Source: Gammaproteobacteria bacterium
GTDB taxonomy: Bacteria; Pseudomonadota; Gammaproteobacteria; Magnimaribacterales; AG-339-G14
Direction: 5' to 3'
Assembly (NCBI GenBank): GCA_019652555.1
Contig: BPAJ01000002.1
Location: 257,747-321,746, forward strand
DNA length: 64,000 nucleotides
The position numbers and the translations under genes were made by a program. Positions within the stretch are counted from its first letter, which is position 1, and every line of letters starts with the position of its first letter. Positions 2,185-21,507 of this stretch are shown here, piece after piece. The notes beneath the pieces were generated by a model. That model searched no databases. It worked only from the letters and a program-made list of their open reading frames with translations, and was not told where the DNA came from.

Positions 2185-3273
2185 ATGAGAGCACAAAACC
2201 TTTTTTTAATTTTACTATTTTCTACCGGTCTTTTTTCTGATTATAAATTCGAAACCATTCTTAGTGATCTGGATGATGCTTGGAGCTTTGAATTTTTAAG
2301 TGAAGATAAAATCATTTATACCGAGATGCCGGGAAAATTAAAGATCGCAGATTTTTCAAACGGATCAACTATTGATATAAAAAATGTTCCAAAAGTTCAA
2401 TACAGCAGCCAAGGAGGTCTTTCAGAAGTTGTCCTGGATCCAGATTTTTCTTCCAATAGAACTCTTTATCTCAGCTATTCAGCGCGGAATGCTGATGGAA
2501 AATCAACTTTGTATTTGATGTCTGCTGAATTAAATGAAGATTCACTTGAGAATAATAAAGTAATTTTTGAAGCTCAAGCTCCAAGAAGAGTTCCCGTCCA
2601 CATTGGAGCAAAAATTGCGTTTTTAGATGATGGCACCATACTTCTAGCAAGCGGAGACGGATTTGATCATCGTGAAAAAGCTCAAACTTTGGATAATCAT
2701 TTTGGAAAAATAATAAGAATAAATAAAGATGGAACAATCCCTAAAGATAATCCATTTGTAAATGTTAAAGATGCTTTACCAGATATCTATTCGTATGGGC
2801 ATAGAAATATGCAAGGCTTGATTGTTACGAAGAATGGGCAAATTTATGAACATGAACATGGACCTCGAGGAGGAGATGAAATGAATCTCATAGAACCTTC
2901 TATAAATTATGGCTGGCCTGCAATAACTTACGGTATAGATTATTCCGGCGCTGTGATTAGTCCTTTCACGGAAAAAGATGGCATGCAACAGCCTTTGTTG
3001 CATTGGACGCCATCGATAGCTCCTTCCGATATGATTTTTTATGAAGGGAATAAATATCCTGAACTAAACAATAGTTTCTTGGTTACTGCTTTGGTTTCAA
3101 AAGATGTAAAGAAAGTAACATTTGCAGAAAGTGGTAAGGATATTCAAGAAAGTCTTTTTGGAAGTTTGAATTCTAGATTAAGAAATATTCAAGCTTCTCC
3201 GAGCGGTTTGATTTATCTTCTTACCGACGGGCCTAGAGGAAAATTAATTAAAGTTTTACCGGAAGAATTATGA
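2185..3273 (+). CDS. PQQ-dependent sugar dehydrogenase (glucose/sorbosone dehydrogenase family), exported
   Basis: Signal peptide; QGGL, YSYGHRNMQG, EHGPRGGDE, NYGWP motifs. Confidence 0.9.
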   Translation: MRAQNLFLILLFSTGLFSDYKFETILSDLDDAWSFEFLSEDKIIYTEMPGKLKIADFSNGSTIDIKNVPKVQYSSQGGLSEVVLDPDFSSNRTLYLSYSARNADGKSTLYLMSAELNEDSLENNKVIFEAQAPRRVPVHIGAKIAFLDDGTILLASGDGFDHREKAQTLDNHFGKIIRINKDGTIPKDNPFVNVKDALPDIYSYGHRNMQGLIVTKNGQIYEHEHGPRGGDEMNLIEPSINYGWPAITYGIDYSGAVISPFTEKDGMQQPLLHWTPSIAPSDMIFYEGNKYPELNNSFLVTALVSKDVKKVTFAESGKDIQESLFGSLNSRLRNIQASPSGLIYLLTDGPRGKLIKVLPEEL

Positions 3274-9893: not shown

Positions 9894-12800
9894 TTATTGC
9901 ATTTTGTAATTAAAACCAACCTTGATAAATCGTCCCAAAGGATTATGAGTATTAGGGTCGTAACTCATATCCCAATAAACAAATGGAGGTTTTTTATCGG
10001 TCAAGTTATAAACCGAAACAGAAAAATCAAAAGTTTTATCCCAGTTATAGGTATAAGTTGCATCCAAAGTTGTATGTGAAGTGCTTTGATTTCAGAAGAC
10101 ATTCTTCTACATCTTCATAAGCAGAAATATAATTTAGAGCCCCATAAAAGTTATGCTTGCTAGTTTTGTAATTTATAAAACCTTTTGCTTTTGTATTTGG
10201 CATTGAGCGACAACTATTAGATATATTGAAGAAGCCGTTGCAAGATAATGGATCTACTACTTGAACACCATTTTTGAGGTAAGCAGCTACCTTATAGTCA
10301 ATTATATAAGCTGCTTCCAGACCTGTAGAGATGGTACCAGCTCTGTAATCATCTTCATATTTAACAAAAATATCCAAACCATCTGTCTCAGTTTTGGGCC
10401 CGTTTACAAATAAAGTAGTAATTCTGTTGATTTCTGAAGCATCAAAAGTTCCGTCATTTATACCGCCTGGACCAAATACTTGTGTTCTTACTGCTGTCCT
10501 AAGGTCACCTCCAGCAGCATAAGCAGCTGCAAGTTTTGGAGCACTCTCTACAATGATTGGATTATCGAAAACAAAATTATAATAATCAAAAGTTGCCTGC
10601 CAGTTATCGGTACCAAAATCCGTGATTAAACCTAGATTAAATGTTGTTGCCTCTTCTGGATCTAAATTTGTATTACCCGTTTTATCCACTGCTTTGAAAG
10701 CACCAGTCTGACCAATAAACTCTAGTTCTGTATACCTTTTATTCCATATTTCATCTGGGTGGGGCGCTCGAAATGTAGTTTGGCCAGTAAACCTGATCGT
10801 TAGGTCATCTGTAGCAATCCATCGCATGACAATCTTGGGATCTAATGAATTTACTTTATCGTAATCTTCGTATCTAAGTGCCAACTGCAAATCAAAATTA
10901 TCAAGAAGAGGCAGAGCAAATTCAGCAAACAAAGAATCTATTTTTTGGTTGTCATCTCTACCAAAAGTTGGAGGTAAAAACATGAAAAGGCCGGTGGGAT
11001 TATTGTTTAAACAATTTTCTCTTGAAGCTGTATTAGCGTTTAATGACGGCAGGTTACATGGATACAGGTCCCCATCAAAAATATTTTGCCGAGCATTATA
11101 TGAATTCAGACCAGGTAACGCAGGAGAGGATTGTTTGATATTGTAGTCACGTCTTTCATAACCAAATGCCCAAGCACCATCTCCTCCAGAAAAATTTCCC
11201 AAAAATCCTTGCAGGGTGAAATCTAAAGTCAACAAAGTAGATTCAGCTTCCACTCTTCCTGTATCAACTAACCAGGCTAAAAGCTCCTTGGAGTTAGCAA
11301 AATTAGAATCGTAATTCGGGTTTGGTCCCACTCGATCTCCAATAACATTTCCAACTTGATTATCATTTGTAAGACTATTTTGATTATCAAAAAAAGGCTG
11401 CTGAGCTTGTTCAACAGCATTGGAAAAGACATTTAAAAACTCACATCCATTGGGTCTAGAATCGGATGCAATATCAGCAATTATTGTATTATTCCCATCT
11501 GACAAAGTTGGGATGGGATCATTGTTATTTGCGTTTCCAAAATCAGTAATTGTGTAACCACAATTTGGCCCGCCATAGCCAAATAATGCAGCTGTGTATT
11601 TATGTGCTTGTGTATCGGAAAAGGTAAGCGCACTTTCAGACATTGAATAATTAAGACTTGCTGAATAATCAATTTCTGAATTCAGTTTTCCTCGAAATCA
11701 AAGGCGAACCTATAGGTATCGTATTTTCTCATCTCAACTTGGGCACCATTTACGTTTCCATTTGGGTTACCCGACGCTGCAAAAGGTCGCGTTCTCATTC
11801 TGTGATAGGAAGCTGGATCAGTGCCGTCAGCCCCCGTGAATTCAACGTTGTCCATCAGACCTTCAAAATCAGGAAATTGTGCAAACAGTCTTTGTAGTCC
11901 AGGGTGAATGTTTGGTACGTAACTTGAGTTGGGATCATTTGGCGGATAAGCAGGAGAGGTTGCATAACGGGGTACATCCGTTTTGCCATATGCAAATTCG
12001 ACGTGAAAATCATGTTCATCAACTGATCCATTGAATTCCATCCAAAGTTGTGAGTTGGTTTGTCTCTCTTGAACGTTGTCGAAATAAGCGTAATTGAACC
12101 GGCATTTCCCTCCATGTCCCAATAGGTTAATTGTACTAGCGCCATTGACGCTATCGGTATAACTAAAGTTTTGATCACTCTCGGGTGTATGGTATCCACC
12201 TGCAGCGTTACATCCTGGATCACCCAATTCAACTTGAGACGTAGAATTATTTAGAGGCATGATAAAAGTTCCAGGATTTCCAATCGTAGACCAACCGCCA
12301 TAAGGATTTTGACTCACACTTTTTTTGGTGAAGTCGGTATTTTTTGAGAAGAAGTCCGGTTTGTGTTGTTGTCCAAGTGATAAAAGAAAATTTGTACCAT
12401 CATCAAGCTCGCTTCCATAAGTTATAGAAAACTCTTTTGCTTGATTTTCTGCACCAGGCATTCCTTTCGCAGCTAGGTTTACCTTTAAACCTTCAAAGTT
12501 AGAGTCGGTAATAAAATTTACCACACCAGCAATGGCATCTGAGCCATAAGTCGCTGCAGCTCCCTCTTTTAAAATTTCAATTCTACTCAAAGCAGCCATG
12601 GGTAAGTCGTGAAGGTTTACCGATCTGCCTGCACCTGTTCTAGAAGGCACTGTCACCTGTCTTTTGCCATTTATCAAAACCAAAGTTCTGTTGGTTCCTA
12701 AGCCTCTTAAATTGATATTTGCGATTCCTTCAGCTTGGTTTGCACCAAACTGATTGGCTTCACCATCCATTCCAGAACTTCCCGGGACCATTTTTATGAG

Positions 12801-12986
12801 TTCAACAATATTTAAGTTTCCTTGAGCTGAAATTTCTTCTGCACTGAAAGTAGAAATTGGAGAACCAGTATCAATTGGGGTTCCTTTTATCAAAGAACCC
12901 ACTACTGTAACTTGCTCGTCTTGGGCAAAGCTATAATTTGCTAGCAGAGCAATATTAAGAAAAGCAAATATAATTTTTTTTGTCAT
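9894..12986 (-). pseudogene. TonB-dependent receptor interrupted by frameshifts near 11690 and 10075-10105
   Basis: Plug motifs NLRGLGTNRTLVLINGKR and YGSDAIAGVVNFIT; the frame resumes as GKLNSEIDYSASLNYSM; the C-terminus HTTLDATYTY...VYNLTDKKPP...LGRFIKVGFNYKMQ is in another frame ending at 9894. Confidence 0.88.
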
Positions 12987-13130
12987 TTTAAAATCAATTT
13001 TTTACTGAAAATAATATTATCTCAATTTTTTTCACAAAGATAAGTTAATTAAATTTAATTTATAAAATCTTAAAGAAATAATTATTTGCTAGATAAGCTT
13101 ATATCTTTGACGATATCGTTTATTGAAATA

Positions 13131-13151
13131 ATAATGAGAATCGTTATCATT
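13131..13151 (+). promoter_or_regulatory. Fur box upstream of the FTR1 permease
   Basis: ataatgagaatcgttatcatt; 7-1-7 core TGAGAAT-C-GTTATCA has 2 mismatches to TGATAAT-N-ATTATCA and overlaps a candidate TTGAAA-N16-TATCAT promoter. Confidence 0.85.
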
Positions 13152-13179
13152 AAACTAATTAATACTTAGTTTAATTTTA

Positions 13180-14079
13180 ATGAATGAATTCATAATACTC
13201 TTTAGAGAAACTCTGGAAGCAGCTTTAATTGTTGGAATAATATATCTATTTCTTACCAATAATAATGCTCCAACCCAAAAACTTTGGCTTGCAGTATTGT
13301 CGGCAATATTTGCGAGCATAGTAGTAGCTTATTTTATTTACTCCGCCCAAGAAGCATTGGGTAATACGTCTTTGAAAGCTCTTTTTGAAGGTATCTTTAT
13401 GTTTATCACTGCTATCTTTATCTGGTACGTAATTTTTTGGCTCTCAAAACATGTAAGTGACAGAAAACAGCTAGAAGAAGGAGCAGCCATTGCAATGAGT
13501 TCATCCTGGGGAGTATTTTTCTTAGTATTCTTCTCGATTATTCGAGAAGGTTTTGAAACCGTTGTCTTTTTACTTGCAAGTTTTTCAATGACTAAAAGTT
13601 TCTCCTATCTGGGATTTTTTGGAGGCATGTTTGCAGCATTGTTCTTAGTATATTTACTGATTATTCAAGGTCGAAGATTCAACATTAGAGAGTTTTTTAA
13701 ATACACTACTTTATTATTAGTATTTTTAGCATCAGGAATGATTGCTTACGGAACACATGAAGTAGAAAGTTATTTCGTAAAATCAAATAACCTGGAAGTT
13801 CTTGGCCTAGAAGATAAAAGTGATATTTCAAGACCATGGGACATTTTAAAGCCCAAAGATAAACTTCAAGAATCAGATATTTCAATTTTTTATTCTTATA
13901 ATGTGAAAGGGGAGAATAAGTACACTCATATATTGCATGATAGCGGCAGTATAGGATCTTTTCTTAAGGGATTTTTTGGGTACAACAGCAATCCAAATTA
14001 TGTAGAACTTTATGCTTGGATTACTTCTTTGATCATAGGTTTGTTTTTCTGGAGAAGATTTTACTTCACAAGCTCATAG
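13180..14079 (+). CDS. FTR1/EfeU-family iron permease
   Basis: Two RExxE motifs (FRETLEA, IREGFET); multiple TM segments. Confidence 0.92.
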   Translation: MNEFIILFRETLEAALIVGIIYLFLTNNNAPTQKLWLAVLSAIFASIVVAYFIYSAQEALGNTSLKALFEGIFMFITAIFIWYVIFWLSKHVSDRKQLEEGAAIAMSSSWGVFFLVFFSIIREGFETVVFLLASFSMTKSFSYLGFFGGMFAALFLVYLLIIQGRRFNIREFFKYTTLLLVFLASGMIAYGTHEVESYFVKSNNLEVLGLEDKSDISRPWDILKPKDKLQESDISIFYSYNVKGENKYTHILHDSGSIGSFLKGFFGYNSNPNYVELYAWITSLIIGLFFWRRFYFTSS

Positions 14080-14095
14080 GATGTTTATTTCTTAT

Positions 14096-14146
14096 TGAGA
14101 ATGAAACTCATTTGTATTGACAATGCAAATGATAATCATTATCATT
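14096..14146 (+). promoter_or_regulatory. Sigma70 promoter overlapped by a perfect Fur box, with a weaker site upstream
   Basis: TTGACA (14117-14122)-N17-TATCAT (14140-14145); palindrome AATGATAAT-C-ATTATCATT (14128-14146); weaker TGAGAATgAAACTCA (14096-14110). Confidence 0.92.
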
Positions 14147-14179
14147 AAAAGCTAACTATCGTTTAAGGAGATATTTCCT

Positions 14180-16348
14180 ATGAAAAAAATAATTTTTTTA
14201 GTTGCATTAGTTGTTTCTACTTCTGCAATTTTTGGACAAGATGAGGAGCTTGAAGTTAAAGGTAACGTTCTTTATAAGGACCAAGTCAACTCCATGAAAC
14301 CTCCAGCGCCAATTTTAAATGTGCCTCAGTCTGTATCAATCATCACAGATGAAGATATTTTGAACCAAGGCTTTAGAGCTCTCGGAGACATAGTTCGTTA
14401 TGTTCCTGGAATACACTCAACTCAAGGTGAGGGACATAGAGACGCCATGGTAATTAGAGGTATTAGAACTACATCTAGTTTTTACCTAGATGGTCAAAGA
14501 GATGATGTGCAGTATTACAGATCTCTTTACAACGTTGAGCAAGTCGAAGTTCTCAAAGGACCTAACGCACTTCTCTTTGGAAGAGGTGGTGAAGGAGGTC
14601 TGATTAATAGAGTAACTAAGAAAGCAAAGCTTGGTGAGACTTTCACAAACCTGAATCTCGGTTACGATACTTTTACCGCTAATGATTTTGCTATTGATAC
14701 AAACATGCAACTTAACGATACAGTTGCATTGCGTTTAATGGCGCACTCAGATACTTTAGCCAATCACAGAGATCTTTACGATGGCACGCGTTCTGGCATA
14801 AATCCAACTTTCACTTTTTCTCTTAATGAAGCAACTGAGCTAAACATTTCCTTAGAATACCTAGATCACGAAAGATTCATTGATAGAGGTATTCCAACCA
14901 CAGGAGCATTAGTAAATGAGGCTTTAAATGAGGTCGTCTATGGAGACCCAAACAAAAACCTTCACACAACGGAAGGAACTATTTTAAAAGCAAACTTAGA
15001 GCACAACTATTCCGATAATGGAAAAATCAATTTATCCATAATGGGCAACAACTTTAATAAAATGTATCAAAACATTTACGTAAAAGATGTTACAAATGGA
15101 ACCACAGGATGTGAGACTAGTGCAACCATAACTACTGTAGCTTGTGTGGAAGGTTATAGAGATACTACATTTAGAGAATCCTCTATTTTGAATCTAACGA
15201 ATGTCAACACATTCGATCGAGCAACTCTTACTGTTGGATTGGATCTTATTGACACCGATAATGATAACGAACGTTATCATTCTCACTTTAGCAATGAAGC
15301 AGCCGATACTGCTGGAGCTGGTGGTGCAACTTTAGGTGCATCTGGAATTAGAAATAATTTTAATTTAGCAAATCCAGGAGATTTCAAAGTTGACGCTTTC
15401 GGAAACCGCACTGTTTTGGATTTCACTACCGATGTTAAAGTCAAAAGTGAAACAGAAATTAAAGTTGAATCAGTTTTCATTACCGCTGACATAGATCTTG
15501 CTGATCAATGGCAAATGATTTTGGGAGCACGTTACGAAGAAGTTGATACAACAATCACTAAATATCGTCCTGATGAAACTGGAACTGGTTTTAACGCCAC
15601 ATACTTAGCTTTAGCGGCAACTGATACTCTTCAAAGAAAAGACAGCCTTACGTCACCTCGTCTGGGTTTAATTTTCAAACCTCAAGAAAATATGTCGCTT
15701 TACTTAAGTTACAGCGAATCTTTCTTGCCTAAATCAGGTGATCAGTACAAAGCTTGGAGTGGTGTTGTAAACAACGTAGCTGCTACTGATCCTGATGTCT
15801 TTGAAAATACTGAGCTTGGCTTCAAATACAATACTGTTTCTGGTATAAATCTTTCAGTAGCCTATTTTGATCAGGAAACTGTAAAGGGTCAGGCAGATGG
15901 TACCGGTGGTGCTGAAATCATAGATTTTGATATTCAAGGTATCGAACTTACTGTTGGTGGACAAATCAATGATGCAAACTCAATTGATTTCTCACTTTCT
16001 TCAGTAGATGCAACAAACACCGATACTGGTGCAGATCAGAAAGAGATTCCTGAGCTAACTTGGTCACTTTGGTACACGCACCGAGCTAGTGACTTGTTCT
16101 CAGTAAGTCTTGGAGCTGTTTATCAAGATGAGCAGTGGATTAGTTCTACTTCAGCAGGAGCTCCTAAACTACCTGATTACACTAGATTTGACATGGCTAT
16201 GTCAATTACACCAAGTGAAACTGATACGATTAGAATTAATATCGAGAATTTATTGGATGAAGATTATTATCCTTATTCTCATTCTACTCATCAGGTAACA
16301 GTTGGTGAGTCTGCTAACTTAAGACTTTCTTACAGTAAAAGTTTTTAA
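14180..16348 (+). CDS. TonB-dependent siderophore-type receptor
   Basis: Signal peptide, VPQSVSII, EQVEVLKGPNALLFGRG, NIENLLDEDY, terminal Phe; AAGGAG RBS; Fur box. Confidence 0.92.
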   Translation: MKKIIFLVALVVSTSAIFGQDEELEVKGNVLYKDQVNSMKPPAPILNVPQSVSIITDEDILNQGFRALGDIVRYVPGIHSTQGEGHRDAMVIRGIRTTSSFYLDGQRDDVQYYRSLYNVEQVEVLKGPNALLFGRGGEGGLINRVTKKAKLGETFTNLNLGYDTFTANDFAIDTNMQLNDTVALRLMAHSDTLANHRDLYDGTRSGINPTFTFSLNEATELNISLEYLDHERFIDRGIPTTGALVNEALNEVVYGDPNKNLHTTEGTILKANLEHNYSDNGKINLSIMGNNFNKMYQNIYVKDVTNGTTGCETSATITTVACVEGYRDTTFRESSILNLTNVNTFDRATLTVGLDLIDTDNDNERYHSHFSNEAADTAGAGGATLGASGIRNNFNLANPGDFKVDAFGNRTVLDFTTDVKVKSETEIKVESVFITADIDLADQWQMILGARYEEVDTTITKYRPDETGTGFNATYLALAATDTLQRKDSLTSPRLGLIFKPQENMSLYLSYSESFLPKSGDQYKAWSGVVNNVAATDPDVFENTELGFKYNTVSGINLSVAYFDQETVKGQADGTGGAEIIDFDIQGIELTVGGQINDANSIDFSLSSVDATNTDTGADQKEIPELTWSLWYTHRASDLFSVSLGAVYQDEQWISSTSAGAPKLPDYTRFDMAMSITPSETDTIRINIENLLDEDYYPYSHSTHQVTVGESANLRLSYSKSF

Positions 16349-16355
16349 TTAATTT

Positions 16356-16591
16356 TTTGGGAGAGCAAAAAAAATGAGCAAACTGTCGAAGCTAAGAAAC
16401 ATCAAGGATGATGTTTTTAAGACAGATTGCTCACTCTCCAAACTGATAAAGACTAAAGTTGAAATACTACGATGATTTTTAGAGAAGCCTTTTCATTTCA
16501 TCTCATGGCCAATCTACTAAAGATCTCCCCCTAGGTAAATCAATAATAGTTTTTTTGGAGAGAAAGAAATCCCGCTTAATAGCGGGATTTC
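16356..16591 (+). ncRNA. Candidate structured sRNA / 3'-UTR RNA of the Fur-regulated receptor
   Basis: Long multi-stem hairpin 16356-16442, pyrimidine-rich stretch 16489-16506 complementary to the ALAS start region, terminator at the end; no expression data. Confidence 0.5.
16566..16591. terminator. Probable bidirectional intrinsic terminator
   Basis: gaaatcccgct-taat-agcgggatttc perfect 11-bp stem between convergent units. Confidence 0.85.
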
Positions 16592-16594
16592 GTC

Positions 16595-17855
16595 TTAAAG
16601 ATCAATAAATTCTCGAAACTTGATTTCTAAATTTTGGGCATCAACTGACTCTCTTCGAAGAGAAAGCTTTGTCCATACTTTATCCAAAGAAGACAAGAAT
16701 CTCTTAATATCTTCAGCTTGATGCTTTGGAGTGATTGTTACTCTAAACCTTTCATCTCCTTTAGGCACTGTTGGATAAAAGACGGGTTGGATGTAAATTC
16801 CGTGTTCTTCAATTAAAACATTTGCTGCCTCTTTACAAAGCCTTGGATCTTCAACATGAATAGGAATAATGTGACTGTCATTATCCAAATGAGGGATTTC
16901 TAAATCTCTCAATCCTTCACGAATTAAATTTGAATTCTCTCTAATATCTTCTCTAAGATTTTCCGATTCCTTTGCAATTTCTATGGCTTTTATTGAAGCG
17001 GCTGCAATACTTGGATTGGCTGACGAGGTAAAGATAAAACCTGGCGCAAAACTTCTGATGAAATCAATTATGTCAGCGCTGGCAGCTACGTAACCACCCA
17101 TTTGACCAAAAGCTTTAGATAACGTGCCATTGATGATATCTATTTCATCAGAAATATTAAGTTCATCTGCAATTCCTCTTCCTTCAGAGCCATAAAGACC
17201 AACCGAATGAACTTCATCAAGATAGGTTAGACAATTAAATTCTTTAGCCAGAGAAACGAATTTGCTTGAGAGGCGATCTCAAACCTTCCATAGAATAGAG
17301 TGATTCCAAAACAATGATTTTAGGAACACTTGCATTTGATGTATTTAATAATTCTCTTAAATGATTAACATCATTATGACTAAAAATGTGACAAGGGACG
17401 TTTGCATTTTTGATTCCTTGAATCATTGAAGCATGGTTAAGTTCATCTGAGAAAACTTCAATACCTTCCAATTTTTTACATAAGGTCCAGAGAGTTGACT
17501 GATTTGCGGTATAGGCAGAAGGGAAAATAAGACTAGACTCTTTGTTATGCAGTTTTGCAATAGTTCTTTCAAGATCAGCATGATAAGAAGAAGTACCTGA
17601 AATGTTTCGCGTACCTCCAGAGCCTGTTCCTAGTTCTTGAATAACTTCAACAGACCTTTGGATTACTTCTGGATGTTGACTTAGATTTAGATAGTCATTA
17701 CTACACCAAACTTCAACAGGCCTTTCAGCACCTTCAAATCTTTCAGTAGCTTTTGGAAAATGCTTCTTGTCTCTGTTGATTTCTCGAAACTTTCGATAAA
17801 GACCTTGAGACTTCAAAGATGTTAGCTCATCCGAAAAATATTTTTTGTAATTCAT
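16595..17855 (-). CDS. hemA: 5-aminolevulinate synthase (ALAS, Shemin/C4 pathway); one extra base near 17260 splits the frame
   Basis: VWCSNDYL, GSGGTRNISGT, SDELNHASMIQGI, ESLYSMEG; after the shift LTYLDEVHSVGLYG, PLP-lysine GTLSKAFG, GFIFTSS, YPTVPKG. Confidence 0.9.
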
Positions 17856-17964
17856 TTCATCCCCAAATAGGTATAAGCATTACTATAGACGTAAAAGCGT
17901 TGAAACTAAATAATTAAAACCTATAGAATTATAATAATATAGTTGTTTAGAAGGATTGGTTATA

Positions 17965-19461
17965 ATGGACGAGTTAAAAATCATCTCTAGAAAAAGTGTT
18001 TTAGCACGACTTCAAGCTATAGAAGTTTCTGATGTTATCAAAGACAAATATCCTGATATCAGAATTAAATTTATCACCAAAGAAACAAAAGGAGATTTAG
18101 ATTTAAATACGCCGCTTCACAAAATGCCTGAAATGGGCGTATTTACCTCCGACATAAGAGAAGAGCTAATCTCTGGGAAAGCTGACATTGCAGTGCACTC
18201 TTGGAAGGATCTTCCTGTGGAGCTTGAAGAAGGAACTGAAGTTACCGCAACGATCAAAAGGGCTGATTTAAGGGATGTTTTAATTTTTAAAAGAAGTTCG
18301 TTTAATAAGAAAAAAATCAACATTTATACTTCTTCACCTAGGCGAAAAGAAAATTTATCTAAGTTTTTACAAAAAGCTTTTCCTTTTGAAATCGATTCTT
18401 GCAGCTTCCATGACATCAGAGGAAATATTTTGACCAGAATAAAAAAACTTAAAGACTCAGATAAAGATGGGGTGGTAATTGCCAAAGCTGCAATAGACAG
18501 ATTGTTATCAAATAGATTGGAAGACAAAGAGTTGATTGCATTTCAAAATGATCTGGAAGCATTTTCATGGATGGTAATTCCCGCTTCACAAAATCCTTGT
18601 GCTCCCGGTCAAGGTGCACTTGCTTTGGAAGTAAAAACAGGAAATAGAGAGATCGTTGAATTGCTCAATAAAATCAATGATTTACAAGTATTTAATAATG
18701 TTCAGCAGGAAAGAGAGAAGCTCAAGAAATACGGTGGAGGCTGTCACCAAAAGATTGGAGTAAGTATAGAAGACCATCCTCTAGGAAAAGTCATTACTGA
18801 AAAAGGTTTAACTCCTGACAGTGAGGAAATTGATGAAAGGACTTTTGTTCCCTTCAAAGAAGAACTATCAAGACTCGAAAGAAGAGTGGAGAATTTTTTT
18901 CCGAAATCAAAAAAAGACTTTAATTTGTTTTCACGATTAAAAATTGATGATGGCATTTCTAAAATAGAGGCATTAAAAAACTCTGGTCTATATGTCTCAA
19001 GAGCGAGTTCTTTGGAACAAGGAGCATCAATTGACCGGTCAAATATAGTTTGGACAAGCGGTATCGAAAACTGGTTTAAATTGGCAAAAAAAGGCATCTG
19101 GGTAAATGGTTCATCCGACAGCTTAGGAGAAAATCAATCAAAGCCAGAATCTTTGGGAAAACAAGTAAAGTGGTTTCTTGTTTCTCATGATGCTTCGTCT
19201 TCGAAAGATAAGACGCTTTTAGCCACATACAGCCTTAAGCCAGAGAAGGAAATAGAAGATTTATCAAAATACTCGCATTTTTACTGGATGTCTATTAGCT
19301 CTTTCAAAGAAGCTCTAAAAAGGTTTCCCTCTTTACAAAATGCTGAACATTCATGCGGTTTGGGGAAAACATTTGATGAACTGAACGATATTTATCCTAA
19401 TAAAATTAAAGCTTTCTTAAACTTTGAAGACTGGCTGGAAAAAGTAAAAGAAGCAAAGTAA
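17965..19461 (+). CDS. hemC: Hydroxymethylbilane synthase with a long C-terminal domain (probable HemC-HemD bifunctional)
   Basis: SRKSVLARLQA, DIAVHSWKDLP, TSSPRR, IRGNILTR, PCAPGQGAL, GGGCH; about 200 extra C-terminal residues. Confidence 0.9.
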   Translation: MDELKIISRKSVLARLQAIEVSDVIKDKYPDIRIKFITKETKGDLDLNTPLHKMPEMGVFTSDIREELISGKADIAVHSWKDLPVELEEGTEVTATIKRADLRDVLIFKRSSFNKKKINIYTSSPRRKENLSKFLQKAFPFEIDSCSFHDIRGNILTRIKKLKDSDKDGVVIAKAAIDRLLSNRLEDKELIAFQNDLEAFSWMVIPASQNPCAPGQGALALEVKTGNREIVELLNKINDLQVFNNVQQEREKLKKYGGGCHQKIGVSIEDHPLGKVITEKGLTPDSEEIDERTFVPFKEELSRLERRVENFFPKSKKDFNLFSRLKIDDGISKIEALKNSGLYVSRASSLEQGASIDRSNIVWTSGIENWFKLAKKGIWVNGSSDSLGENQSKPESLGKQVKWFLVSHDASSSKDKTLLATYSLKPEKEIEDLSKYSHFYWMSISSFKEALKRFPSLQNAEHSCGLGKTFDELNDIYPNKIKAFLNFEDWLEKVKEAK

Positions 19462-19483
19462 GCTACGCACCTGTTTACCGACT

Positions 19484-20479
19484 ATGGCAAATTTTAAAAG
19501 AAAATATCCTCTTTCTAGGCTAAGAAGGCTAAGAGCTAACAAATCCATCAGGAATCTCGTTGCTGAAAATAAATTATCAGTCGATGACTTGATTCAGCCT
19601 ATTTTCGTAAAGGAATCTTTAAAGGAAAAAGAAGAAATAGAATCTTTACCTGGAATTTTTAGACATTCGGATAAAAGTATTCTTAAAGAGGTAGAAGAGC
19701 TCTTAAGTTTAGGCATAAAAGCGGTAGCCATTTTCCCTGTAATCGATGAAGACAAGAAAGATGAGGAGGGCTCTGAGGCAATAAATGAAAATAATTTTTT
19801 AAATAATATCATTAAGACAATAAAACAAAATTTTCCAGAGATTCTAGTTGTTGCTGATGTTGCTTTAGATCCATACACAATTCATGGACACGATGGTGTA
19901 TTAAATTCTGACGGTGATGTTGATAATGATAGGACGCTCAAAATTCTAGAAGATCAGGCATTGAAGCTAGCTCTAGCAGGTACAGACATCATTGCTCCAT
20001 CTGACATGATGGATGGCAGAGTTGGAGTCATAAGGAAAGCCCTTGAAGAAAAGGGCTTTAAAAATACTATGATTCTAGCTTACTCAGCAAAATACAGTTC
20101 TAAGTTCTATGGTCCTTTTAAGGAAGCAGTTGAATCAGCAAAATTTTTTGGAAATAAAACAAAAGACTCTTATCAAATGGCTGTTGCAAACATTGATGAA
20201 GCTCTTCACGAGGTTGCCTTAGATATAAATGAAGGCGCTGATATTGTTATGGTAAAACCAGGTATGCCTTATCTTGATGTGGTAAAGGCAGTTAAAGAAA
20301 AATTTCAAATGCCAACCTTTGTTTATCAAGTAAGCGGAGAATACGCTATGTTGAAGGCAGCAATTGAAAAAAACTGGCTAAGTGAGGAAGTAATATTTGA
20401 ATCGCTTCTTTCATTTAAGCGAGCTGGTGCGGATTGCATCTTAACTTATGCCGCAAAAGAGATAGCAAAAAATCTATAA
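19484..20479 (+). CDS. hemB: Porphobilinogen synthase (Zn-independent type)
   Basis: APSDMMDGR, FYGPF, MVKPG, YQVSGEY; DVALDPYTIHGHDG replaces the Cys-rich Zn site. Confidence 0.97.
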   Translation: MANFKRKYPLSRLRRLRANKSIRNLVAENKLSVDDLIQPIFVKESLKEKEEIESLPGIFRHSDKSILKEVEELLSLGIKAVAIFPVIDEDKKDEEGSEAINENNFLNNIIKTIKQNFPEILVVADVALDPYTIHGHDGVLNSDGDVDNDRTLKILEDQALKLALAGTDIIAPSDMMDGRVGVIRKALEEKGFKNTMILAYSAKYSSKFYGPFKEAVESAKFFGNKTKDSYQMAVANIDEALHEVALDINEGADIVMVKPGMPYLDVVKAVKEKFQMPTFVYQVSGEYAMLKAAIEKNWLSEEVIFESLLSFKRAGADCILTYAAKEIAKNL

Positions 20480-20487
20480 TTTCTGAT

Positions 20488-21507
20488 ATGCGTAACTCCA
20501 GGTTTCAAAATGCTTTGAATCGGGTTCCTCAGGAAATTCCGCCGATATGGTTTATGCGTCAAGCTGGCAGATATCATGATCATTATCAAAATCTCAAGAA
20601 ATCTCACTCTTTCGTTGAGCTTTGTAAAATTCCAGCCTTGTCAGCTCAAACTGCTTTAGGTCCAATAGAAGAATTTGACTTTGATGTCGCTATTTTATTC
20701 AGCGACATTCTTTTTCCCTTGGAGTCTTTGGGTATGGATTTGATTTATGACCCCGGTCCAATATTCAAAGAACATCTATTAGAAGAAAATGCTTCTAGAA
20801 TCCTTGTCAATAAAAATCCTATTGCTTCTTTGGAATTCCAAGGGGAGGCAATAGAAAGAACTTTGGAATTACTTCCAGACGATAAGTCTATGATTGGCTT
20901 TATTGGCGGACCATGGACATTGTTATCTTTTGCCTCAGCTAAAAATAAATTAGATAAGATTGGAAAAATAGAAAGTTACCAATGGGCAATTTTGGAAGAG
21001 TATATCTATCCTCTTTTACATAAAAACATTTCTTTGCAATTGCAGGCTGGAGCTGAACTTGTAATGATTTTTGATTCTTGTGCACACCAGCTTGCTAAAG
21101 ATGATTTATCTATTTACCTCAATAAAGTTTTAAATGAGTTAGTAAAGTCTTTTCCAAATCAAGTTGGCTACTATGCAAAAGACGGAATTTCTTATGATGA
21201 TATCTTTAAAGCATCTGATAGTTTCGAAGTTCCTTTTGCAGGAATTGGGGTAGATTCAAATGTCAGCATTCAAGATATTTTTGCAAAAAGGAAAGATGGG
21301 TTCATCCAAGGCAATTTCAGTGAAAAAATCATTACTCAGGATTTCAACGAATTTGATAAAGCTTTAAATTTATTTCTAGAAGATATTTCCTCTCTTTCAA
21401 TAGAGGATAGAAAAGGATGGGTATGTGGGTTAGGTCATGGCGTTATCAAGACCACACCTCAAGAAAATGTTAAACATTTTGTGAAAAAAGTAAGGTCTTA
21501 TTTATGA
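20488..21507 (+). CDS. hemE: Uroporphyrinogen decarboxylase
   Basis: PIWFMRQAGRY, AILFSDIL, GFIGGPWTL, LGHGV. Confidence 0.95.
   Translation: MRNSRFQNALNRVPQEIPPIWFMRQAGRYHDHYQNLKKSHSFVELCKIPALSAQTALGPIEEFDFDVAILFSDILFPLESLGMDLIYDPGPIFKEHLLEENASRILVNKNPIASLEFQGEAIERTLELLPDDKSMIGFIGGPWTLLSFASAKNKLDKIGKIESYQWAILEEYIYPLLHKNISLQLQAGAELVMIFDSCAHQLAKDDLSIYLNKVLNELVKSFPNQVGYYAKDGISYDDIFKASDSFEVPFAGIGVDSNVSIQDIFAKRKDGFIQGNFSEKIITQDFNEFDKALNLFLEDISSLSIEDRKGWVCGLGHGVIKTTPQENVKHFVKKVRSYL

What the first reader, a model, noticed from the sequence alone, without database searches (positions are those of the whole stretch)
16489..16515. Candidate iron-sparing sRNA seed complementary to the ALAS ribosome-binding site and start codon
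Seen: plus-strand ttcatttcatc occurs at 16492-16502 and again at 17851-17861, where the minus strand is the ALAS initiation region 5'-GGGGAUGAAAUGAA-3'. An RNA made from the plus strand (5'-UUCAUUUCAUCUC-3', 16492-16504) can form 13 consecutive pairs, one G-U, over the SD-like GGGA and the AUG. It lies between a large hairpin and a terminator, downstream of a promoter with a perfect Fur box, with no obvious terminator in between. Known: RyhB and PrrF are Fur-repressed sRNAs that silence iron-using genes. The local CUUUUCA..AUCUCAU.GGCCAAUC loosely recalls the PrrF core as I remember it. Inference: a 3'-UTR-derived sRNA that shuts off the first heme step when iron is low, a circuit I do not know to be described. 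An 11-mer match in AT-rich DNA could be chance.
Basis: partly seen in the sequence, partly recalled or inferred. Interest (0 to 1): 0.85.

Follow-up and report, generated by a model that had tools for sequence, protein, structure and literature searches.

The report
SAR86 RNA matching ALAS start site
A short, almost unchanging RNA element at the tail of an iron-receptor gene in the abundant ocean bacterium SAR86 carries an exposed loop that matches the start site of the neighbouring first heme-synthesis gene, so it is probably an iron-saving regulatory RNA, a known kind of switch not yet described for this organism.

Summary
The 246-nt spacer between a TonB-dependent receptor gene and the convergent 5-aminolevulinate synthase (ALAS) gene holds a structured element found in 14 of 17 genomes of one SAR86 genus. 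It was found in 0 of 138 genomes of 20 other genera of the order. Its roughly 60-nt core is nearly invariant, although ALAS DNA is only 77-81% identical between these species.

It pairs with 13 nt over the ALAS Shine-Dalgarno region and AUG in all 14 genomes and 19 metagenome contigs that carry it. The only changes seen in the site are A-to-G changes that keep pairing as G-U. Sister genera without the element lack this ALAS start-site motif. One of two genus members that lost the element lost the motif too.

The receptor promoter carries a conserved Fur box in 16 of 16 genomes. Other good matches are the leader of ETF-QO (electron-transfer-flavoprotein:ubiquinone oxidoreductase; 19 nt perfect), KatG and AcnB. 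No Hfq was found.

Not shown: the transcribed strand, a discrete small RNA, or repression. The PrrF likeness is not supported. The circuit logic is already known from IsrR in Staphylococcus aureus.

The parts
14117..14146 (+). Receptor promoter (TTGACA 14117-14122, TATCAT 14140-14145) overlapped by a Fur-box-like site at 14128-14146
   Evidence: Promoter scan scores 11 of 12. The site AATGATAATCATTATC is conserved upstream of the receptor gene in 16 of 16 genus genomes, at 15-18 of 19 consensus positions.
14180..16348 (+). TonB-dependent receptor gene, the presumed parent mRNA
   Evidence: Pfam Plug plus barrel domains. NCBIfam TonB-siderophore 214 bits against a cut-off of 223.5. Only 47-56% amino-acid identity between species, except G002 at 95%.
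16359..16365 (+). GGGAGAG, the 5' copy of a direct repeat (TTTT-A/G-GGAGAG) that brackets the element
   Evidence: GGAGAG is invariant in 14 of 14 carriers. Genomes without the element keep a single copy in front of the terminator.
16375..16433 (+).
   Evidence: RNAalifold pairs at columns 27-36 with 83-92; 7 of these 10 pairs show changes on both sides. Absent in 3 of 14 carriers: G012, G009, G006.
16474..16525 (+). Hairpin 2: stem GAUUUUUA-AG-GCC / GGC-CU-UAAAGAUC around the seed loop
   Evidence: Consensus fold. Sequence nearly invariant in 14 genomes and 26 metagenome copies, with no compensatory change in the stem. A U-G pair kept in 25 of 26 copies fits the + strand only.
16490..16506 (+). 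17-nt loop UUUUCAUUUCAUCUCAU holding the seed (16492-16504)
   Evidence: TCATTTCATCTCATGGC is invariant in 14 of 14 carriers. Mean predicted unpaired probability 0.89-1.00, against 0.39-0.49 for the whole RNA.
16525..16532 (+). Conserved C-rich single-stranded stretch CUCCCCCU, a possible second anti-Shine-Dalgarno module
   Evidence: Near-invariant columns. Predicted unpaired probability 0.43-0.99. Function inferred only.
16557..16562 (+). GGAGAG, the 3' copy of the direct repeat
16566..16591 (.). Two-way terminator hairpin shared by the receptor/element and ALAS
   Evidence: 11 pairs, 6 of them G-C. Compensatory changes at 2 pairs.
17851..17863 (-). Predicted target: ALAS Shine-Dalgarno region and start codon, GGGAUGAAAUGAA
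   Evidence: 13 consecutive pairs with the loop. Rank 3 of 1239 reading frames. Pairing kept in 14 of 14 genomes and 19 of 19 contigs.
16595..17855 (-). ALAS gene, split here into two frames (17244-17855 and 16595-17101)
   Evidence: Both halves hit TIGR01821 best, at 262 and 171.6 bits. RNA-library contigs lack one letter at 17258/17259. Relatives have one open frame of 413-457 codons.

Best explanation
The spacer encodes a genus-specific regulatory RNA on the + strand. It is made as the 3' untranslated tail of the Fur-controlled receptor mRNA and may be cut free between hairpin 1 and hairpin 2. When iron is scarce, Fur repression lifts and the receptor mRNA is made together with its tail. 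The 17-nt loop of hairpin 2 then pairs with the Shine-Dalgarno region and AUG of ALAS mRNA and blocks ribosome entry. This lowers heme synthesis at its first step. It probably also lowers a few iron-cofactor proteins: ETF-QO, AcnB and KatG. It would act without Hfq. Shown here: the element, its conservation and fold, an accessible loop, conserved complementarity, co-occurrence with the ALAS motif, and the conserved Fur box. Inferred: the strand, co-transcription, any processing, iron dependence, and repression.
For: (1) Conservation. Model R1 scores 113-155 bits in 14 of 17 genus genomes, one copy each, always between the receptor gene and ALAS. It found 0 of 138 genomes of 20 other genera of the order. 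Only 13 of 40 records with the exact 17-mer among species-representative genomes are true hits: 12 titled SAR86 cluster and one Gammaproteobacteria MED-G81. The core is invariant while ALAS DNA is 77-81% identical. (2) Fold. The whole spacer folds at -81.7 kcal/mol, z = -8.7, on the + strand, against -75.6, z = -6.1, on the - strand. The structure was predicted on the + strand; 499 of 515 of its pair cells pair on +, against 463 on -. (3) Seed accessibility is 0.89-1.00. (4) ALAS ranks 3 of 1239 frames. With 67 shuffled loops its best rank was 30 and its median rank 544. It is also the adjacent gene. (5) In the 13-nt site of 14 genomes plus 19 contigs, the only variants are two A-to-G changes that keep G-U pairs. 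(6) All 13 genomes of three sister genera lack the motif at ALAS. G007 lost both the element and the Shine-Dalgarno part of the site. The two losses are separate on the ALAS tree. (7) The Fur box is conserved in 16 of 16 genomes, and Fur is present. (8) The ETF-QO leader holds a 19-nt perfect complement. KatG ranks 8, AcnB 11 and an NfuA-like gene 19. (9) RNA-library contigs cover the element, and one joins the receptor's 3' end to it (X5 record 30). (10) No Hfq in 17 of 17 genomes and no ProQ; an RNase E/G homologue is present.
Against: There are no stranded reads, so the strand, the RNA ends and a discrete small RNA are unproven. One contig also spans the element and half of ALAS (record 31). 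DNA in the RNA libraries cannot be excluded. Hairpin 2 has 0 of 13 pairs with changes on both sides in 26 copies, so its fold rests on energy and invariance alone. G008 lacks the element yet keeps the ALAS site. The katG and ETF-QO motifs also persist in G007 and G008, so these sites do not depend on the element. An energy of -17.5 kcal/mol is not exceptional: shuffled loops reach -18.1 on average on some start site. The iron-gene set was picked after seeing the ranking. sdhC ranks 66, sdhA 250 and the ferritin-family gene 453. The ALAS site is also a ribosome-binding site plus two codons, which are constrained anyway. No promoter or cleavage site was identified.
Confidence: 0.5

Rival explanations
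1. The element is a cis-acting 3' tail of the receptor mRNA, serving stability, termination or localisation, and has no trans target. On this reading the match to ALAS reflects common descent or chance among A/U-rich start sites.
For: It lies inside the receptor transcription unit with no promoter of its own found. Hairpins at 3' ends commonly stabilise mRNAs (established knowledge). Shuffled loops also find start sites near -18 kcal/mol.
Against: A stabilising hairpin does not need an invariant 17-nt loop. The receptor protein itself evolves fast, at 47-56% identity. The ALAS motif occurs with the element across genera. A 19-nt perfect complement in the ETF-QO leader is not chance.
Confidence: 0.15
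2. The functional strand is the minus strand. An RNA downstream of ALAS, made by read-through or as its own transcript, carries a copy of the ALAS and ETF-QO start-site sequence (CCAUGAGAUGAAAUGAAAA). It would act as a decoy for a factor that binds those start sites.
For: The minus strand repeats the start-site motif in the same sense. It also folds well, z = -6.1. An 802-nt contig joins the element to ALAS (record 31).
Against: The ALAS terminator lies between ALAS and the element and is the better-scoring direction. 39 G-U cells on the + strand become A-C mismatches on the - strand, though that structure was predicted on the + strand. The hairpin 2 lower stem is not recovered in the minus-strand consensus fold. 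No candidate binding factor is known.
Confidence: 0.12
3. It is a + strand small RNA with its own promoter, not under Fur. Its main targets are genes other than ALAS.
For: Many sRNAs in 3' regions have internal promoters (established knowledge). The strongest complement in this genome is the ETF-QO leader, not ALAS.
Against: No conserved -35/-10 pair lies upstream of hairpin 2, and short-form spacers leave only about 40 nt there. ETF-QO complementarity drops to 8 nt in most relatives, whereas ALAS keeps 13 nt.
Confidence: 0.12
4. It is a small protein gene, or a protein-binding site acting at the DNA level.
For: Open frames of 33 and 20 codons exist on the + strand. Whole-block invariance, stem included, could mean that a protein reads the sequence.
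Against: The start codons are not conserved, and single-base length changes in the T-run shift the frame in G016 and G001. A spacer between two converging genes has no promoter to regulate. Hairpin 1 and the terminator covary as RNA.
Confidence: 0.05

Closest known systems
IsrR (Staphylococcus aureus), a Fur-repressed iron-sparing sRNA
   Same: IsrR is Fur-controlled. It is predicted to pair with the ribosome-binding site of hemA, and it binds hemA mRNA and lowers a hemA translational reporter; hemA encodes the enzyme of the first committed heme step. It also binds katA mRNA (PMC12607789, abstract and section 9 read). I recall that it uses C-rich motifs and acts without Hfq. Here the predicted targets include the first heme enzyme and a catalase-peroxidase, there is a C-rich stretch, and no Hfq was found.
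   Different: No sequence relation was found. The heme target here is ALAS (the C4 route), not glutamyl-tRNA reductase. This RNA sits in the tail of a receptor mRNA rather than being a free-standing gene. Nothing here has been tested at the bench.
RyhB (Enterobacteria) and PrrF (Pseudomonas)
   Same: They are Fur-repressed RNAs that silence mRNAs for iron-using proteins. The review PMC13501541 (passages seen) names sodB and iscSUA as RyhB targets. I recall that aconitase and succinate dehydrogenase genes are targets as well. AcnB is among the best predicted targets here.
   Different: Rfam models give no hit on the element. RyhB is assisted by Hfq, and Hfq was not found in 17 of 17 genomes here. 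Those RNAs have their own Fur-box promoters.
3'UTR-derived sRNAs such as CpxQ, SdhX and NarS (names recalled, not looked up here)
   Same: The regulator lies between the stop codon and the terminator of a parent mRNA, shares its promoter signal, and cross-regulates related functions. RNase E often releases it, and an RNase E/G homologue is present here.
   Different: Release of a small RNA is not shown here. I know of no case in which the parent is a Fur-controlled TonB-dependent receptor mRNA. The searches listed none, but they cover open-access text only.

Membership tests
PrrF RNA (Rfam RF00444) | Match to the family covariance model at its gathering score (90 bits) | tested here: not met
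   cmscan of 13000-19000 at E up to 10 gave no PrrF hit on 16349-16594. The only PrrF row is 20.2 bits at 13123-13161.
Any Rfam 15 family (including RyhB) | Match at the gathering score over the element | tested here: not met
   The best rows over 16349-16624 score 15-24 bits against gathering scores of 37-130, and all fall on the terminator region.
Fur-controlled iron-sparing sRNA (functional class) | A Fur box at the promoter that drives the RNA | tested here: inconclusive
   The Fur box at the receptor promoter is conserved in 16 of 16 genomes, and no strong terminator precedes the element. That the element is transcribed from this promoter is inferred. One RNA-library contig joins the receptor's 3' end to the element.
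Fur-controlled iron-sparing sRNA (functional class) | An accessible seed complementary to start sites of mRNAs for iron-using proteins | tested here: met
   In silico only. Loop unpaired probability is 0.89-1.00. Ranks among 1239 frames: ALAS 3, KatG 8, AcnB 11. The ETF-QO leader has 19 nt.
Fur-controlled iron-sparing sRNA (functional class) | The RNA accumulates under iron limitation and represses its targets | not testable with these tools
   All 24 runs offered are stored as contigs, which carry no strand or level.
3'UTR-derived sRNA | Lies between the parent gene's stop codon and its terminator on the same strand | tested here: met
   16349-16591 follows the receptor stop at 16348 and ends at the hairpin 16566-16591. 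The + strand is favoured by G-U pairs and fold energy.
3'UTR-derived sRNA | A discrete small transcript with a defined 5' end, from processing or an internal promoter | not testable with these tools
   Contigs only. No conserved promoter was seen.

The most novel reading that the evidence does not exclude
One SAR86 genus evolved its own Hfq-independent iron-sparing riboregulator inside the tail of a Fur-controlled siderophore-receptor mRNA. Matching start-site motifs arose on ALAS and ETF-QO in the same lineage. Iron uptake and the shut-down of heme and Fe-S protein synthesis would then be issued as a single transcript. The RNA would be a ready-made marker of iron stress in ocean metatranscriptomes of one of the most abundant marine bacteria.
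Probability: 0.35. Interest if true: 0.7.

Novelty: new member of a known kind. Interest (0 to 1): 0.58.

Why it matters
SAR86 is among the most abundant bacteria of the surface ocean, where iron often limits growth, and almost nothing is known about its gene regulation. I found no iron-responsive RNA described for it: search listed 4 papers, and the one SAR86 genome paper (passages read) mentions only an unrelated non-coding RNA in a sugar-use region.

If the reading holds, three things follow. It would show how a streamlined genome without Hfq couples iron uptake to heme and Fe-S economy. It would be a case of a regulator and its target site arising together within one genus. It would also provide a sequence marker that can be followed in existing metatranscriptomes. 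The circuit logic itself is known from RyhB, PrrF and IsrR.

Tried and rejected
- Rfam scan at E up to 10: nothing near any gathering score.
- tRNA/tmRNA scan: none.
- Small proteins: frames of 33, 30 and 20 codons were rejected. Their starts are not conserved and length changes in the T-run shift the frame.
- Own promoter: no conserved -35/-10 pair upstream of hairpin 2. The best in-gene candidate, at 16242-16270, scores only 9 of 12.
- Covariation in hairpin 2: none, even with 26 metagenome copies. Those copies were found with the invariant 17-mer, so the loop's invariance among them is by design.
- The first duplex ranking used the loop plus its closing pairs and many false starts. I discarded it.
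- The idea that the 7-mer G(A/G)GAUGA marks only iron genes was rejected: about ten plausible starts carry it.
- Classical iron-sparing targets: no Fe/Mn superoxide dismutase found. sdhC ranks 66, sdhA 250 and the ferritin-family gene 453, so they give no support.
- Self-pairing with the receptor's own start site: GGAGAUGAA occurs in G005 and G011 (AAGAGAUGAA in G001) but is not conserved across the genus.
- Depth in RNA-library contigs: high over the receptor gene and 16278-16545 and low over ALAS in X1 and X2. Per-contig depths cannot rank parts, and the conserved element also collects contigs of other species. X3 has no cover over 16278-16545.
- Earlier scan notes: none on this place or sequence.
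- Supplementary files of the papers were not opened. Supplementary Figure S5 of PMC3358033, which shows the other SAR86 RNA, was therefore not compared.

Full report
**Setting.** The window is part of a 1.24-Mb, 3-contig genome with 34-36% G+C. Earlier notes of this scan call it SAR86. I checked this only in so far as every true copy of the element among species-representative genomes lies in a record titled SAR86 cluster bacterium, or in one case Gammaproteobacteria MED-G81.

Around the finding the genes are:
- an FTR1-type iron permease (13180-14079, +);
- a TonB-dependent receptor of the siderophore type (14180-16348, +);
- a 246-nt spacer (16349-16594);
- the convergent ALAS gene (17855-16595, -);
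- then, diverging from ALAS, hemC, hemB and hemE.

The 11-mer stands at both places. The + strand 16492-16504 forms 13 consecutive pairs, one of them G-U, with GGGAUGAAAUGAA over the ALAS Shine-Dalgarno region and AUG. Rfam gives nothing, and the PrrF model does not touch the element.

**The spacer is a conserved element.**
- BLAST, and then a covariance model (R1, built on 14 sequences), find one copy per genome in 14 of 17 genomes of the genus. It always lies between the receptor gene and ALAS.
- G007 and G008 have spacers of 52 and 45 nt that hold the terminator only. G015, which is 59% complete, gave no hit.
- In other genera of the family there were 0 of 8 and 0 of 16 hits, and 2 of 9 weak hits that match the terminator only.
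- In a 151-genome draw of the order, 0 of 138 genomes outside the genus matched at E up to 1e-4.
- Among 185,579 species genomes, 40 records hold the exact 17-mer and 13 of them are true hits.
- ALAS DNA is 77-81% identical between G000 and the others, and the receptor protein is 47-56% identical except in G002. Yet the block from GAUUUUUAGAG to CUCCCCCU is nearly invariant. TCATTTCATCTCATGGC is identical in all 14 carriers.

**Anatomy on the + strand.**
- A GGAGAG box lies just after the receptor stop codon.
- Hairpin 1 is optional: it is absent in 3 of 14 carriers, and 7 of its 10 pairs show changes on both sides.
- An A/U-rich linker follows.
- Hairpin 2 has a 17-nt loop that holds the seed.
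- Then come a C-rich stretch, a second GGAGAG box, and the terminator, which covaries at two pairs.
- The two GGAGAG boxes form a direct repeat. G007 and G008 keep one copy, which fits deletion between the repeats. On an ALAS tree the two losses are separate: G008 is nested with support 0.999.
- The spacer RNA folds at -81.7 kcal/mol (z = -8.7) on the + strand and -75.6 (z = -6.1) on the - strand.
- The consensus structure, which was predicted on the + strand, pairs in 499 of 515 cells on the + strand and 463 on the - strand.
- Hairpin 2 shows no compensatory change, so its fold rests on energy and invariance.
- The seed is predicted to be unpaired, with probability 0.89-1.00.
- It is not a protein gene: the starts are not conserved and length changes shift the frame.

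**ALAS as target.**
- I ranked 1239 reading frames of 100 codons or more, with 3148 candidate starts and the window -30 to +15. ALAS ranks 3 at -17.5 kcal/mol; the mean is -7.7 and the sd 2.8.
- By their sequence context, ranks 1 and 2 look like in-frame codons inside longer genes. That is my reading and was not checked by a family search.
- With 67 shuffled loops ALAS never came under rank 30, and its median rank was 544. Shuffled loops do find some start site at about -18 kcal/mol, so the energy alone proves nothing. What counts is that the hit is the neighbouring gene and that it is kept.
- All 14 carrier genomes have a pairing-competent site: 12 have GAGAUGAAAUGAA, G000 has GGGAUGAAAUGAA, and G002 has GAGAUGAGAUGAA.
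- So do 19 of 19 metagenome contigs that hold both the element and the ALAS start: 12, 5 and 2 of the same three forms. The other 7 true hits did not include the ALAS start. These contigs may come from the same populations as the genomes.
- The only variants are A-to-G changes opposite a loop U. The bases just upstream of the site vary freely.
- In 13 genomes of the three sister genera, which lack the element, ALAS has no such motif.
- Inside the genus, G007 lost the element and has UUUAAAACGAAAUGAA at the site. G008 lost the element and keeps the site.
- In terms of events this is one joint gain, one joint loss and one recent unmatched loss. That is suggestive, not proof.

**Other candidate targets.**
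- The strongest complement in the genome is a 19-nt perfect match in the leader of ETF-QO, a 4Fe-4S protein. There it covers the start of a 15-codon upstream frame whose stop abuts the ETF-QO AUG.
- In relatives this match is 13 nt (G012, G015, G005), 11 nt (G010), 9 nt (G014), or 8 nt over the Shine-Dalgarno region in the other seven, including G007 and G008.
- Five genomes of other families lack it.
- KatG (rank 8) has UAUGAGGUGAAAU, identical in 15 of 15 genomes.
- AcnB (rank 11) keeps 8-11 nt in 17 of 17 genomes, in two registers.
- An NfuA-like gene ranks 19.
- Four iron-related genes in the top 20 was never reached by the 67 shuffles: 57 gave none, 8 gave one and 2 gave two. The four were chosen after seeing the list.
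- sdhC (rank 66), sdhA (250) and the ferritin-family gene (453) give no support.

**Control and cofactors.**
- A Fur-box-like site over the -10 element of the receptor promoter is conserved in 16 of 16 genomes, at 15-18 of 19 positions. Most genomes have a second box over the -35 element.
- A Fur gene is present.
- Hfq was not found in 17 of 17 genomes, six of which are at least 90% complete. ProQ was not found in G000. An RNase E/G homologue is present.

**Expression.**
- Thirteen runs on record as RNA hold parts of the stretch, but all are stored as contigs.
- Four runs were laid. Contigs cover the element. One (X5, record 30) joins the receptor's 3' end to the element in a short-spacer relative. 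Another (X5, record 31) spans the element, the terminator and half of ALAS.
- Contigs give no strand and no level, and DNA may be present in these libraries.

**Comparison with known systems.**
- Fur-controlled iron-sparing RNAs are textbook: RyhB and PrrF (review PMC13501541, passages seen).
- IsrR of S. aureus binds hemA and katA mRNAs and lowers hemA translation (PMC12607789, abstract and section 9 read).
- What is new here: a non-homologous RNA family in SAR86, its place in the tail of a Fur-controlled receptor mRNA, ALAS as the target, and the apparent joint birth of regulator and site in one genus.
- Searches of open-access full text for an sRNA acting on ALAS, or for a Fur-linked 3'UTR sRNA of a TonB-dependent receptor, listed none (listings only).

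**Verdict.** This is a real, functional, genus-specific RNA element (about 0.9). The + strand is likely (about 0.75). The full iron-sparing model with ALAS as a direct target has about 0.5.

Noticed in passing
window 17101-17260 (ALAS): ALAS is split into two frames. RNA-library contigs leave out one letter at 17258/17259, and relatives have one open frame of 413-457 codons. The break is therefore most likely an assembly error or a strain-specific lesion. ETF-QO (C1:455284-456802) and the RNase E/G gene (one internal TGA) look broken in the same way.
   Followed up: partly
whole genome G000; window 16595-21507: This gammaproteobacterial lineage makes 5-aminolevulinate with ALAS. No glutamyl-tRNA reductase was found above its cut-off: TIGR01035 gave 27 bits at best in a genome that is 90% complete. 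ALAS sits in a cluster with hemC, hemB and hemE.
   Followed up: partly
window 17956-19461: The hemC frame has 501 codons, but the HemC families cover only residues 6-272. The C-terminal 230 or so residues have no hit and may be a fused HemD-like part.
   Followed up: no
window 13130-13148: A second Fur-box-like site, AATAATGAGAATCGTTATC, overlaps the promoter-like site of the FTR1 permease gene. By eye it matches 16 of 19 positions.
   Followed up: no
window 11682-12986 (-): A frame of 434 codons with only the Plug domain of a TonB-dependent receptor, probably another broken or truncated gene.
   Followed up: no
G000 C1:455236-455283: The ETF-QO leader of this genome holds a 15-codon upstream frame (MKNIHFEKNAEIKVF) whose stop abuts the ETF-QO AUG. 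G012, G015 and G005 have a different, longer insert at the same spot.
   Followed up: partly
genus-wide: Hfq was not found in 17 of 17 genomes, ProQ was not found in G000, and no Fe/Mn superoxide dismutase was found in G000.
   Followed up: partly
window 2873-2885 (+): A third perfect 13-nt complement to the loop lies inside a reading frame that reads ...HGPRGGDEMNLIEPSINYGWP.... From memory this looks like a PQQ-dependent sugar dehydrogenase. It is internal, so it is an unlikely target.
   Followed up: no
loci L089-L120: katG and acnB of G000 are 97-98% identical in DNA to G003 and G011, whereas the ALAS region is closest to G010 and G004 at about 80% and its spacer to G002 at 94%. This points to mosaic ancestry or a mixed assembly.
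   Followed up: no
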